Source: Octopus vulgaris (Eukaryota). From it: a stretch of DNA of 64,000 bases. The stretch is from assembly GCA_951406725.2 (NCBI GenBank), contig OX597820.1, positions 96,906,001 to 96,970,000 of the forward strand, in the 5' to 3' direction. Position numbers: made by a program. Positions 1 to 4,384 of this stretch are shown here, one piece after another. The stretch's first letter is position 1. Each line of letters starts with the position of its first letter.

Positions 1-3000
1 AAATTTCACTTATAGAGGAAAATTACAGAAAGCACTTGCTAGTTTACTGCCTCATTTTGTTTTGTTATGGAGTTTAGCTAGGTGTTTCTTGTTTTATATT
101 AAAGTTTATTCTATTTTGTGTGGTGTGTATAATGTGCTATTTTATTGGGCATTAATCTTGTAGAGTATGTTATATGTGAATCGTATTGTTTTATTGTATT
201 AGGTACTTATTGTAATAGCTGTGTATTGTATGTGAAGATAATTTGATTTGAATTATGCTAATGAATTGATAATGTTGTGCACAGGATGTGGACTGTTCCT
301 AGCAGAGCTAATTTTATCACAAAGAGCAGTGAGTCCCAACATGATTTTTATGTTTTTGTTCATATGTTTTGTCATATTTAATGAGCCAGTCATCATCGTT
401 GTTGTTGTTATCATTATAATTATTATTATCATTATCATCATTATCATCATCGCTGAAACTCATAGTGAGAAGATGTCTTTTTCTTCTCTCCACAAAACTA
501 TGTCTCTATTTCAAGAATTACTTTGTGAAAACTTTCATGAAGTAATAACTATTTATACTCAGCAAAGTGAAAATCGGAAAAACTAAAATAGATTTAAATA
601 TTTAAAAACCTCATTGGAATCAATGATCCAATACTTGCAACAGATAGACAAAAAATTTACTTTTATTTGCTTTTACAGAGTTGGTTTTATTTGCTCAAAC
701 ATTTTGACCTCAATTCACACTCAAAATGTCTACCAAACACATTCACTGTACAAAGCAAAATATCATGTACAATACCTAAAAGACAGTAGAAAAACAAATT
801 GCATCAGAGAAGAAACAATAAAGAAGAAAATGGTGAATATTTTGATAAGCAAATTAATAGAAGAAAAATATTTTGGATAGTCTAACAAATAATTTTAAAG
901 ATAATACAGTTCTATATTTAAGAGATGAGGAATTATGTACATTACTTACATTATTTACAAATGGATAGTGTGTATAATTTGCTATTTTGAAAAACAAAAA
1001 AGAATACAGGTGGAGTGGAACTGTAATCAAAAGTATTCTGGACATGATTATCCCATCTTTTATCTTATACTATAAGGTGATATTAAAAAATTTGGATTTT
1101 ATTTCAGACAAATAAAACTGCAATGTATAAGATCCCTCCTGGTGTTACTGTAACAAATGTAGGAGAAACAGAAATAAAGCCTGACTGTGGGATCAGAGCT
1201 GAAGCATGATAGTGAGTAAAATTTTGCCTGTCATTTGGCTTTTTTTTTTTAATCTGCTCTTGAATATTAGAGTATGTAGCAGTAGCACCATCCTGTATAT
1301 GTTGGCCTTATTTTAACTTTAAAAGACAATCTCATTAGTCTCCATAGAGATTCTTGTCAAGCATTTCTGATTTTAATCAGTTGTCACAGTCTATAAATGT
1401 AAATCTGCCATATTTCCATTTACTTAATTATTTCTGAAATTCTCTTATGTTGAAGCTCTGTCAATAATGTAAATAATGATTTTTGTCAATGGTGTAACAC
1501 AGCTGTAAGGCAACGAATGCTTTTTAGAGCAAACAGTCTATAAATTAACTCCTAGTATTTACTTAAGAGAGACAAGGTGTGGTTGTTGGCAAGAAATTTG
1601 CTTCCCAACCACATAGTTCCGGTTTCAGTCCAACTGCATGGTACATGGGCCAGTGTCTTCTACTATAGTCCCAAGCCAACCAAAGCCTTGTGAGCGGGGA
1701 TTTTGGTGGATGGAAACAGAAGGAAGCCAGTTGTGTGTGTGTGTTTGTCTTGATATTGAGAAATAGTTCTAAATGATTGTCACTGTCATACAAGCAGTAT
1801 CATTCATTTCCAATATGCTGCAAGACTATGTCTGGCCATGGAGAAATATCACCTTATTTGGAAACAGGTGAGGGCTGACAACAAGAAGGGCATCTGCCCA
1901 TTAAAAATCAGCCTCAACAAAAGTCCATGGGCATATGACGTAGTGGTTACAATAGGCATATGGTGTAGTGGTTAAGAGCACAGGCTACTAACCACAAGAT
2001 TCCAAGTTCAATTCCAGGCAGTGACCTGAATAATAGTAATAATAATAATAATAATAATATCGAAAAATACATTAGAAATCAGAACCCAGGTTGATGAAGG
2101 CTGGAGGGTATATCAGCCGAAACGTGTTAACAACAAACAAAATGAGGACAAAATCAGTCGAATGTAAATAATGTAAATTTTAAAGATATTGATAAAAGCA
2201 ACTACAGTCTTTCGATCAGTGTTGGTTTATGTTCCCATAATTTAATGGTTGGACAAAAGAGACCGAAAGAATAAGTACCAGAGTTCAACAAAAGCTCTTG
2301 AAGGTAGTAACCCAGCATGGTCATGTTCAATTACTGAAACAAGTATAAGATAAAAGATAAAATTATTTAGTAAAGTCAACTTAGACTCTCACATTGATAT
2401 TCTACAAATTAGTGATCTGAAGTGAATGTAAGAAATCATTTTTCAGAATGTCGCTTCACTGGCACATGTAAAAAGATTCAAGCGAGGTCGTTGCAAGTGC
2501 CACCTGACTGGCCTCTGTGCCGGTGGCACGTAAAAGCACCCACTACACTCTCGGAGTGATTGGCGTTAGGAAGGGCATCCAGTTGTAGAAACTCTGCCAG
2601 ATCAAGATTGGAGCCTGGTGCAGCCATCTGGTTCACCAGCCCTCAGTCAAATCGTCCAACCCATGCTAGCATGGAAAGCGGACGTTAAACGATGATGATG
2701 ATGAATGAAGCTTTGTCCAAAATATTTTTTATGGTACAAGTTAGCTATGTCACATTGTGTTCTGAGTTCAAACCCTTTTAAGATAGACTTTGCTTTTTGG
2801 GTCATTCTGGGATCATCATTCTCTTTCTTTTTCTCTTTTTTGCTTTATTTTAATGTTCACTTTTCTAGGTCAGATTTTGTTGAGGCTGATTTTTAATGGG
2901 CAGATGCCCTTCTTGTTGTCAGCCCTCACCTGTTTCCAAATAAGGTGATATTTCTCCATGGCCAGACATAGTCTTGCAGCATATTGGAAATGAATGATAC

Positions 3001-4384
3001 TGCTTGTATGACAGTGACAATCATGTAGAACTATCACTCAATGTCAAGACAAACACACACAACTGGCTTCCTTCTGTTTCCATCCACCAAAATCCCCGCT
3101 CACAAGGCTTTGGTTGGCTTGGGACTATAGTAGAAGACACTGGCCCATGTACCATGCAGTAAAACTGAAACCGGAACTATGTGGCTGGGAAGCAAATTTC
3201 TTGCCAACAACCACACCTTGTCTCTCTTAAGTAAATACTAGGAGTTAATTTATAGACTGTTTGCTCTAAAAAGCATTCGTGGCCTTACAGCTGTGTTACA
3301 CTATTGACAAAAATCATTATCTACATTATTGACAGAATTTCAGAAATAATTAAGTAAATGGAAATATGGCAGATTTACATTTATAGACTGTGACAACTGA
3401 TTAAAATCAGAAATGCTTGGCAAGAATCTCTATGGAGACTAATGAGATTGTCTTTTAAAGTTAAAATAAGGCCCACATATACAGGATGGTGCTACTGCTA
3501 CATACTCTAATATACAAGAGCAAATTAAAAAAAAAAGCCAAATGACAGGCAAAATTTTACTCACTATCATGCTTCAACTCTGATCCCACAGTCAGCCTTT
3601 ATTTCTGTTTCTCCTACTTTTGTTACAGTAACACCTGGAGAGATCTTATACATTGCAGTTTTATCTGTCTGAAATAAAATCCAAATTTTTTAATATCACG
3701 TTATAGTATAAGATAAAAGATGGGATAATCATGTCCAGAATACTTTTGATTACAGTTCCACTCCACCTGTATTCTTTTTTGTTTTTCAAAATAGCAAATT
3801 ATACACACTATCCACTTAAGCCACACACTTCAAACATATCTATTCCCACCTCCTTATATAAACCATATTGGGTCCCACCTCAACACCAGTCATAGGCTAT
3901 CTGTGATTTGTGGGACTTTTTAAATGACGCACCTAGTGAAAGAATTACCTTCAGTTTTTTTTAGTAGTGTGGCCTACCTAATGTCTCGCACAGTCTGCTT
4001 CAAGTAAAAGGTTGCCTGTGCTTGCTCTTCACTAACCACATTTTTACCAGTCTGTCTTCCCCAGAACTCACTTTACACTCCTCATATTTTACCCTGCAAC
4101 TTCTGACCTACACATATACAAACTGCTGCGTTGGACACGATGGTTGTTCGCCTGGTATGTTGTTTTTGTTCATTCATTATAAATCTTGAATTATGCTTGC
4201 ACTGAGGATTAAAGAGTGCATACCACTGCACTGATTACGAAATCACAGGTGATATGCAGCTGAATTCTGTTTTTAAATGACTTGCTTTGAGAGTTGTATT
4301 CGGTACAATATGTTTATTTATTTTAGTAGTTTTGACTTTAAGAGTCCCTCCTAGCGTATGGCATTTATGAGTAGTAATGCCTTC

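What the first reader, a model, noticed from the sequence alone, without database searches (positions are those of the whole stretch)
962..3814. Inverted ~950-bp duplicate of a coding exon: built-in dsRNA partner for the gene's own stop-codon exon
Seen: two near-identical arms ~950 bp apart, made mostly of unique sequence; the right arm holds candidate exon 4. A minus-strand pre-mRNA using the donor just after the stop would run through both arms and fold a long hairpin over the exon and its splice sites. Established: coleoids recode mRNA extensively through ADAR, which needs a complementary partner sequence; long hairpins also feed Dicer and alter splicing. Inference: this may be a recently born editing-complementary sequence or endo-siRNA source.
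Basis: partly seen in the sequence, partly recalled or inferred. Interest (0 to 1): 0.8.

Follow-up and report, generated by a model that had tools for sequence, protein, structure and literature searches.

The report
Inverted duplicate of non-coding octopus DNA
A real pair of inverted 950-base copies sits in repeat-rich octopus DNA and could fold into a long RNA hairpin if transcribed, but nothing shows that the "exon" inside it is a coding exon, so it looks like an ordinary local duplication.

Summary
Arms 959-1922 and 2875-3817 are reverse complements: 23 substitutions over 943 aligned sites (2.4%) plus 3 indels. A 952-nt spacer separates them. The whole 2,859-nt stretch would fold into a hairpin with about 930 inter-arm pairs.

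The "stop-codon exon" (3668-3565, minus strand; mirror copy 1108-1211, plus strand) is a 33-codon frame between TTTCAG and GTGAGT. Such units occur in this window about as often as chance predicts. No credible homologue turned up in 5.8 billion protein clusters, which hold Octopus proteomes, in 1.84 billion representatives, in Pfam or in the PDB. The two copies differ more inside the unit than outside it, and 5 of the 6 changes are non-synonymous. No upstream gene was found.

Both arms carry the same old SINE insertions, so this is a segmental inverted duplication and not a transposon's terminal repeats. A SINE-type repeat runs unbroken from the right arm into the spacer but is cut in the left arm, so the left arm is the derived copy.

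If the locus is transcribed, ADAR hyper-editing is the likely fate of the RNA. Such dsRNA-forming loci are already known to be unusually common in octopus. Interest is low.

The parts
959..1922 (.). Left arm of the inverted duplication (964 nt). It is the derived copy.
   Evidence: Searches give the alignment to the right arm. Both of its ends cut through repeats: a repeat at 898-966 stops where the arm starts, and the SINE-type repeat 1828-1928 is truncated at the inner end.
1923..2874 (.). Spacer (952 nt), which would be the hairpin loop. It is a patchwork of repeat pieces and is not palindromic.
   Evidence: stretch 2499-2708 is a SINE with up to 9 other copies in the window, and 2127-2178 and 2225-2281 are other repeats. 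One search lists only short stop-to-stop frames here (at most 65 aa), typical of the window.
2875..3817 (.). Right arm (943 nt). It is the parental copy.
   Evidence: The SINE-type repeat that starts in this arm runs on into the spacer without a break.
3565..3668 (-). TTTCAG lies upstream, 33 codons are open, TGA is at 3569-3567, and GTGAGT is at 3564-3559.
   Evidence: Searches give the anatomy. No credible homologue was found. Coding status is not supported.
1108..1211 (+). Mirror copy of the exon-like unit in the left arm. It keeps the same splice-like motifs, and its TGA is at 1207-1209.
   Evidence: It differs from the right copy at 6 sites: N2D, P10S, P11P, N17K, P25A and A31V.
1575..1748 (.). 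Old SINE copy inside the left arm. Its twin in the right arm lies at about 3049-3218.
   Evidence: 8 other copies in the window at 75-83% identity, while the two arm copies match at the arm-wide level. The SINE therefore inserted before the duplication.
2815..2969 (-). SINE-type repeat that crosses the inner end of the right arm into the spacer. The end at 2815 is approximate.
   Evidence: One search aligns it with the copy at 18400-18575. One search finds the tail motif at 2847-2866(-) and 18424-18443(-), plus 33694-33713(-) with 2 mismatches, against 0.09 expected by chance.
898..966 (+). Truncated repeat that abuts the outer end of the left arm. A shared TGGAT lies at the junction.
   Evidence: One search shows 85.5% identity to 18879-18946. 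One search shows that the other copies of this repeat continue where the arm begins.
2844..2849 (-). AATAAA on the minus strand, 26-31 nt beyond the right arm. Transcripts ending here would contain one arm only.
   Evidence: An ATTAAA also lies on the minus strand at 2892-2897, inside the right arm.

Best explanation
This is a local inverted segmental duplication of non-coding, SINE-bearing octopus DNA. A stretch of about 950 bp, now the right arm, was copied with its embedded SINEs. The copy was joined in reverse orientation about 950 bp away and became the left arm. The join was probably a replication template switch or a break-repair event. This step is inferred from junctions that cut through repeats and from a 5-nt shared TGGAT.

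The exon-like unit is a chance open frame between splice-like motifs that was carried along with the rest. The locus has no demonstrated function. If it lies inside a transcribed intron or a non-coding RNA, the two arms would pair into a near-perfect dsRNA of about 930 bp. That dsRNA would most likely be hyper-edited by ADAR, as happens to other neighbouring inverted repeats in octopus. This step is inferred from the literature and was not shown here.
For: Shown here:
- The inverted repeat, with 2.4% substitution divergence and 3 indels.
- Both arms hold the same SINE at the same place. That SINE is only 75-83% like its 8 other copies in the window, so it predates the duplication.
- The unique parts of the arms have no other copy in the 64 kb.
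- No target-site duplication was seen at the ends, by reading the flanks.
- The SINE-type repeat is continuous across the right arm and spacer but cut in the left arm, and its tail motif is absent from the plus strand of the spacer.
- The left outer junction cuts another repeat.
- The fold: 930 of 943 pairs form, with an MFE of -1866 against about -650 for shuffles.

The exon is not supported:
- No hit among proteins of 71-2000 aa or of 22-70 aa in a collection that does hold O. bimaculoides and O. vulgaris proteins.
- Of 1.84 billion representatives, only 2 hits. Both are long tandem-repeat proteins matched in 10 and 8 stretches. The best single stretch is 28.5 bits with 12 of 24 residues identical.
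- Pfam gave 0 families and the PDB gave 0 matches.
- Divergence is 6 of 104 sites inside the unit against 17 of 839 outside, and pN/pS is 1.54.
- Both strands of the window hold 7 TTTCAG...GTRAGT units 50-250 nt long. My arithmetic from the 91 and 76 motif counts predicts about 11. Three of the 7 have at least 30 open codons, and two of those three are the two arm copies.
- 751 of 7067 stop-to-stop frames in the window reach 40 aa or more.

Context:
- A second, more decayed inverted structure lies at 17527-18341 against 19031-20709 in the same window.
- PMC5625713 (passages) reports that octopus has an exceptionally high fraction of loci able to form long near-perfect dsRNA, and that most hyper-editing sits in such structures made by neighbouring inverted repeats.
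Against: - The splice-like motifs on both sides of the unit are good matches and are intact in both copies. A 33-residue peptide is too short for sensitive homology search, so a young or lineage-specific exon cannot be excluded.
- The protein collections may lack this species' annotation.
- No RNA data were available, so neither transcription nor editing is shown.
- The direction of copying rests on one repeat family with only 2-3 other copies in the window.
- Gene conversion between the arms could make the structure older than 2.4% divergence suggests.
- No octopus genome other than this window could be searched. 'Unique' therefore means unique within 64 kb.
Confidence: 0.7

Rival explanations
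1. The right arm holds a real terminal coding exon of a minus-strand gene. The left arm is a newly born complementary partner, so the pre-mRNA folds over the exon and its splice sites. This would lead to ADAR editing of the exon or to altered splicing.
For: The inverted repeat and the fold are real. The unit has an acceptor-like TTTCAG, a 33-codon frame, a TGA and a GTGAGT donor, all intact in both copies. The right arm is the parental copy. The host is an octopus.
Against: - No credible protein homologue in any library searched.
- No constraint: divergence is higher inside the unit than outside, and 5 of the 6 changes are non-synonymous.
- Chance-level frequency of such units in the window.
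- No coding signal upstream on the minus strand: 0 of 10 of the longer non-simple-repeat frames picked carry a Pfam domain, and one search shows only short frames.
- AATAAA at 2844-2849 and ATTAAA at 2892-2897 on the minus strand lie before the left arm.
- A duplex of about 930 bp favours indiscriminate hyper-editing over selective recoding. This point rests on general knowledge and on PMC5625713 (passages).
Confidence: 0.07
2. A hairpin-RNA (hpRNA) gene. The locus is its own transcription unit, and its long hairpin is diced into endogenous siRNAs that silence a related gene elsewhere, as in Drosophila.
For: The geometry fits: a long near-perfect inverted repeat with a loop of about 1 kb. The hpRNAs of D. 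simulans arise from inverted copies of gene fragments and may carry transposon pieces (PMC10317233, passages).
Against: A survey of small RNAs in molluscs, whose methods list O. bimaculoides material, found no evidence of endo-siRNAs or of a dedicated siRNA pathway (PMC12479628, abstract and passages). The arms show no homology to any protein-coding gene. No target can be named.
Confidence: 0.03
3. An assembly artefact: a chimeric or palindromic read, or a haplotype copy placed in reverse.
For: Inverted duplicates are a known class of long-read assembly error (recalled, not from any call). No reads could be inspected here.
Against: - The arms differ by 23 substitutions and 3 indels, one of 16 nt. 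This is not the identical sequence that a chimeric molecule would give.
- A non-palindromic 952-nt spacer separates the arms.
- The window has no gaps.
- A second, older inverted structure in the same window shows that such rearrangements occur in this genome.
Confidence: 0.1
4. A foldback-type or long-terminal-inverted-repeat DNA transposon without its transposase.
For: Long inverted termini surround a non-coding middle.
Against: - No target-site duplication at 959-962 and 3814-3817, by reading.
- No other copy of the unique arm sequence in the window.
- Both arms contain the same old SINE insertions, which terminal repeats of a mobile family would not share unless the arms were duplicated after those insertions.
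- The right arm's inner end lies inside an intact SINE-type repeat and is not at an element boundary.
Confidence: 0.05

Closest known systems
Neighbouring inverted-repeat dsRNA loci that ADAR hyper-edits (Alu pairs in human; the long near-perfect dsRNA loci counted in Octopus bimaculoides by Porath et al. 2017, PMC5625713)
   Same: Two inverted, highly similar copies lie within a few kb and would pair into a long near-perfect duplex if they sit in one transcript. The host is an octopus, where such loci are reported to be exceptionally frequent.
   Different: Most of this pair is a segmental duplicate of single-copy DNA. It is not two independent insertions of one repeat family. The arms (about 950 bp) are several times longer than the SINE copies in this window (about 110-200 bp). 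Editing was not observed here.
Drosophila hpRNA loci (for example the de novo hairpins of D. simulans, PMC10317233)
   Same: The hairpin arises from an inverted duplication near its progenitor sequence, with transposon fragments aboard (passages).
   Different: Nothing here shows a transcription unit, Dicer products or a target gene. Molluscs are reported to lack detectable endo-siRNAs.
Intronic editing-complementary sequences of recoding sites
   Same: Complementary sequence in the same pre-mRNA as an exon would pair with that exon.
   Different: Classical ECS duplexes are short and imperfect and serve a proven, conserved coding exon. Here the duplex is about 930 bp and nearly perfect, and the exon is unproven.
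Small interstitial inverted duplications made by replication template switching or break repair (FoSTeS/MMBIR-type events; recalled)
   Same: An inverted copy lies close to its source, the junctions fall inside unrelated sequence, and a few bases of shared sequence (TGGAT) sit at one junction.
   Different: The mechanism is inferred from one locus. The ancestral state was not seen.

Membership tests
Inverted segmental duplication | Two copies of one stretch in opposite orientation, alike along their whole length, including unrelated embedded repeats at the same positions | tested here: met
   920 of 964 columns are identical. The same SINE (1575-1748 and about 3049-3218) and the same SINE-type repeat are present in both arms.
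Inverted segmental duplication | One copy in its original context, the other bounded by breakpoints | tested here: met
   The repeat is continuous across the right arm and spacer, cut in the left arm, and the left outer end cuts another repeat. This rests on few repeat copies.
Hyper-edited inverted-repeat dsRNA locus | Inverted copies within a few kb that are predicted to form a long near-perfect duplex | tested here: met
   930 of 943 inter-arm pairs form and the longest perfect helix is 150 bp.
Hyper-edited inverted-repeat dsRNA locus | Both arms in one transcript, with clustered A-to-G RNA/DNA differences | not testable with these tools
   No RNA data and no octopus read collections were available.
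ADAR editing-complementary sequence of a recoding exon | The paired partner is a genuine coding exon | tested here: not met
   No credible homologue, no constraint, and chance-level motif frequency. The short peptide limits the power of this test.
ADAR editing-complementary sequence of a recoding exon | Site-selective editing that changes a codon | not testable with these tools
   No RNA data were available.
hpRNA / endo-siRNA locus | Long inverted repeat able to form a hairpin | tested here: met
hpRNA / endo-siRNA locus | Dicer-dependent siRNAs from the arms and a primary transcript with defined ends | not testable with these tools
   No small-RNA data were available. The literature reports no endo-siRNAs in molluscs (PMC12479628).
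hpRNA / endo-siRNA locus | Arms homologous to a target gene | tested here: inconclusive
   No protein-level homology for the only sizeable splice-flanked frame of the arm. Nucleotide-level search of an octopus genome was not possible.
Foldback / long-TIR DNA transposon | Target-site duplication flanking the termini | tested here: not met
   The flanks at 951-958 and 3818-3825 share no duplicated bases (read).
Foldback / long-TIR DNA transposon | Multiple copies in the genome | tested here: inconclusive
   No other copy of 967-1574 was found in the 64-kb window. The rest of the genome could not be searched.

The most novel reading that the evidence does not exclude
The unit at 3668-3565 is a young, lineage-specific exon, for example a poison or terminal cassette exon, of an unannotated minus-strand transcript. 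The inverted copy 950 bp downstream gives it a built-in perfect dsRNA partner. Use of the exon would then be gated by hairpin formation and ADAR hyper-editing. That would be a caught-in-the-act birth of an editing or splicing switch by a single duplication.
Probability: 0.05. Interest if true: 0.55.

Novelty: new member of a known kind. Interest (0 to 1): 0.15.

Why it matters
As it stands, this is one more inverted-repeat locus in a genome already reported to be unusually rich in them, so it changes little.

It has some value as a clean example. Both arms, the spacer and all the junctions are readable, and the direction of copying can be inferred. It could therefore serve as a test locus for how octopus cells handle a near-perfect intramolecular dsRNA of about 930 bp made largely of single-copy sequence. 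The possible fates are hyper-editing, nuclear retention, dicing or nothing. Only if the exon-like unit proved to be expressed and spliced would the locus bear on how editing substrates are born.

Tried and rejected
- Rfam scan of 1-8000 at E up to 1: 7 matches, all in the (TA)n tract or at 4227-4259, all far below the gathering scores, and none in the arms.
- tRNA scan of 1-8000: 0 genes.
I resent it as the 40-aa stop-to-stop frame.
I replaced it with 10 stop-free frames, which gave 0 families.
- The two hits in the representatives library (P0001, P0002) were examined and rejected as homologues. They are long tandem-repeat proteins of bacterial appearance. That reading is mine, because the library carries no names. 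The summed score comes from 10 and 8 weak repeats of one 24-residue match.
- Clustering of substitutions in the unit (6 of 23 in 104 of 943 sites) has P = 0.035 for this one pre-chosen window. I do not take it as meaningful.
- I looked for the missing half of the repeat cut at the left outer junction just after the left arm, and for a plus-strand copy of the SINE tail in the spacer. Neither was found.
Only the single exon-like unit was searched, on its own, and the step of joining exons was left out.
- Not checked: any octopus genome or transcriptome beyond this window.
- Not checked: paper supplements, which were closed. The additional files of PMC5625713 may list hyper-edited octopus loci that bear on this one.
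Full report
**Observation**

The repeat finder reports four collinear inverted blocks at 97-98% complementarity. blastn joins them into one alignment of 959-1922 with the reverse complement of 2875-3817, with 920 of 964 columns identical. A global MAFFT alignment counts 23 substitutions (13 transitions, 10 transversions) and 21 gap columns. Those gaps fall in three indels of 1, 16 and 4 nt. That is 2.4% substitution divergence over 943 aligned sites. The spacer, 1923-2874, is 952 nt and is not itself palindromic. 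The window has no N.

Folded as one RNA, the minus strand of 959-3817 has an MFE of -1866 kcal/mol, against -636 to -662 for five shuffles. 930 of 943 possible inter-arm pairs form, and the longest uninterrupted helix is 150 bp. The plus strand behaves the same way.

**What the arms are made of**

A blastn of 701-4200 against the whole window gives the following.
- Stretches 967-1574 and 1749-1827 have no other copy in the 64 kb.
- Stretch 1575-1748 is a SINE with 8 other copies at 75-83% identity.
- Stretch 1828-1928 is a SINE-type repeat with 2 other copies.
- The spacer holds another SINE (2499-2708, up to 9 other copies) and smaller repeat pieces.

The host is an octopus. A LINE endonuclease frame of the window (11658-12077, minus strand) finds as its best relatives proteins named from Octopus bimaculoides (61% identity) and Octopus vulgaris (89% over 57% of the query). 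SINEs are said to dominate the octopus repeat landscape (PMC9068888, one passage).

The two arm copies of the SINE are as alike as the rest of the arms, yet far from every other copy. The SINE was therefore already in place when the stretch was duplicated. This argues for a segmental duplication and against the terminal repeats of a mobile element. Reading the flanks, I see no target-site duplication.

**Which arm is the copy**

I aligned both inner ends with another copy of the SINE-type repeat (18400-18575). In the right arm the repeat runs on past the arm's end into the spacer, down to about 2815. In the left arm it stops at about 1928 and unrelated sequence follows. The repeat's tail motif occurs at 2847-2866 (minus), at the collinear place 18424-18443 (minus), and with 2 mismatches at 33694-33713. 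The number expected by chance is 0.09, and no plus-strand copy lies in the spacer.

At the outer end of the left arm, a further repeat (898-966, 85.5% identical to 18879-18946) breaks off where the arm begins. Its other copies continue there, and five bases (TGGAT) are shared at the join.

So both ends of the left arm are breakpoints, while the inner end of the right arm is not. The right arm is the source and the left arm is the derived copy. The event itself, a template switch or break repair using microhomology, is inferred and not shown.

**The 'exon'**

The right arm holds, on the minus strand, TTTCAG, then 104 nt (3668-3565) with 33 open codons ending in TGA (3569-3567), then GTGAGT (3564-3559). 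The left arm holds the mirror copy on the plus strand (1108-1211). I tested its coding status in four ways.

1. *Background frequency.* Both strands of the window hold 91 TTTCAG and 76 GTRAGT motifs, and 7 pairs of them lie 50-250 nt apart. My arithmetic from those counts predicts about 11. Three of the 7 have at least 30 codons open from the acceptor, and two of those three are the two arm copies. In addition, 751 of 7067 stop-to-stop frames reach 40 aa or more. Units like this are what the base composition gives.

2. *Homology.*
   - The 40-aa frame found nothing among proteins of 71-2000 aa (2 candidates shared short words, none scored E <= 10).
   - It found nothing among proteins of 22-70 aa. 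This collection does hold Octopus proteomes.
   - The 33-aa peptide, scored against all 1.84 billion representatives, gave 2 hits. Both are long tandem-repeat proteins matched in 10 and 8 stretches. The best single stretch is 28.5 bits with 12 of 24 residues identical. I read these as summed chance matches to a repeat and not as relatives.
   - Pfam gave 0 families, and the PDB gave 0 matches at E up to 1.

3. *Constraint.* The two copies differ at 6 of 104 sites inside the unit and at 17 of 839 outside it. Five of the six changes alter the residue, and pN/pS is 1.54 on very small counts. A coding exon under selection should be the better-kept part, not the worse.

4. *A gene to belong to.* Stop-to-stop frames in 1-10000 are short or low-complexity. 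Ten of the longer (48-79 aa), non-simple-repeat minus-strand frames picked, between 4085 and 9905, carry no Pfam domain (0 of 10). The only protein signals found in the window are transposon remnants: LINE endonuclease at 11658-12517 and a Mos1-type HTH at 28463-28882.

I built no spliced model. The unit was searched on its own, and the step of joining exons was left out. The power of these tests is limited by the 33-residue length and by the lack of RNA data. A young, lineage-specific exon is not excluded.

**How it most likely works**

I take the locus to be a neutral by-product of a local rearrangement. What it would do depends on transcription, which I could not test. On the minus strand, the first poly(A)-type hexamers after the unit are ATTAAA at 2892-2897 and AATAAA at 2844-2849, both before the left arm. 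A transcript ending there would contain one arm and form no hairpin.

If a longer transcript on either strand covers both arms, a duplex of about 930 bp forms. Porath et al. report the following (PMC5625713, passages only).
- Octopus has the strongest hyper-editing signal among the animals studied.
- The fraction of octopus loci able to form long near-perfect dsRNA is exceptionally high (4.4 x 10^-3).
- Most hyper-editing lies in such structures made by neighbouring inverted repeats.
- Even in cephalopods, most editing activity is in non-coding regions.

Hyper-editing is therefore the expected fate of the RNA. Dicing into endo-siRNAs is less likely. A survey of 32 molluscs, whose methods list O. 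bimaculoides material, found no evidence of endo-siRNAs or of a dedicated siRNA pathway (PMC12479628, abstract and passages). The hallmarks that define Drosophila hpRNAs are Dicer-2-dependent small RNAs, a primary transcript that rises in dcr-2 mutants, and arms homologous to a target gene (PMC10317233, passages). None of these could be tested here, apart from arm homology, which came out empty at the protein level.

**Artefact?**

The arms differ mostly by substitutions and by a 16-nt indel, and they are separated by a non-palindromic spacer. A chimeric molecule would give identical arms. I rate an artefact at about 0.1. Only long reads can settle it.

**Comparison and novelty**

The locus works like the inverted-repeat dsRNA substrates already catalogued in octopus and other animals. 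It differs in being mainly a duplicate of single-copy DNA, and in having arms several times longer than a SINE. A second, more decayed inverted structure lies in the same window. It has blocks of 373 bp at 90%, 194 bp at 94% and 182 bp at 92% identity, between 17527-18341 and 19031-20709. This fits the view that such rearrangements are common here.

I searched the held literature four times. I found no paper on this locus, nor on duplication-born editing partners of cephalopod exons among the titles and abstracts listed. Those searches were by keyword and prove no absence.

**Verdict**

The structure is real. Its interpretation as the dsRNA partner of a coding exon is unsupported. The kind is known, and interest is low (0.15).

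Noticed in passing
window 17527-18341 and 19031-20709: A second inverted-repeat structure. It has three blocks: 17793-18162 against 19386-19031 (373 bp, 90%), 17527-17720 against 20709-20516 (194 bp, 94%), and 18161-18341 against 20506-20325 (182 bp, 92%). The order of the blocks on the right side is not that of a simple inverted copy, so there was further rearrangement.
   Followed up: partly
window 4380-4950: Long (TA)n, (GATA)n and (GA)n microsatellites lie just beyond the right flank. The weak Rfam miRNA matches here (mir-297 and others, 25-39 bits against gathering scores of 81-100) are low-complexity chance hits.
   Followed up: yes
window 11658-12517 (-) and 28463-28882 (-): Transposon remnants. 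Two frames carry endonuclease/exonuclease/phosphatase domains of a LINE (Pfam PF14529 and PF03372), and one carries a Mos1-type HTH_48 domain of a mariner-like element. The LINE frame is 89% identical over 57% of its length to an Octopus vulgaris predicted protein.
   Followed up: partly
window 21100-23980: Several hundred bases of short-period tandem repeats give long artificial open frames in all six frames ('MYVC', 'HTYI', 'THTH' runs). These are the longest ORFs of the window and are not genes.
   Followed up: no
window 37089-37504 and 57009-57416; 41663-42120 and 42012-42466: Two direct repeats of over 400 bp at 92-93% identity. One pair lies 20 kb apart, and the other overlaps itself, so it is a tandem array.
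   Followed up: no
window 1929-1975: Right after the left arm's inner breakpoint, the first roughly 20 nt of a tRNA-like SINE head appear twice in tandem before the SINE body and its (AAT)n tail. This may be a trace of the joining event (read).
   Followed up: no
window 5270-5650 (+) and 9400-10344 (+): The frames look like the tail of an RTE-type LINE reverse transcriptase and like a mariner/Tc1 transposase C-terminus. This is my reading only. Pfam gave no family for the pieces tested: 5397-5594, 9528-9692 and 9967-10341.
   Followed up: partly
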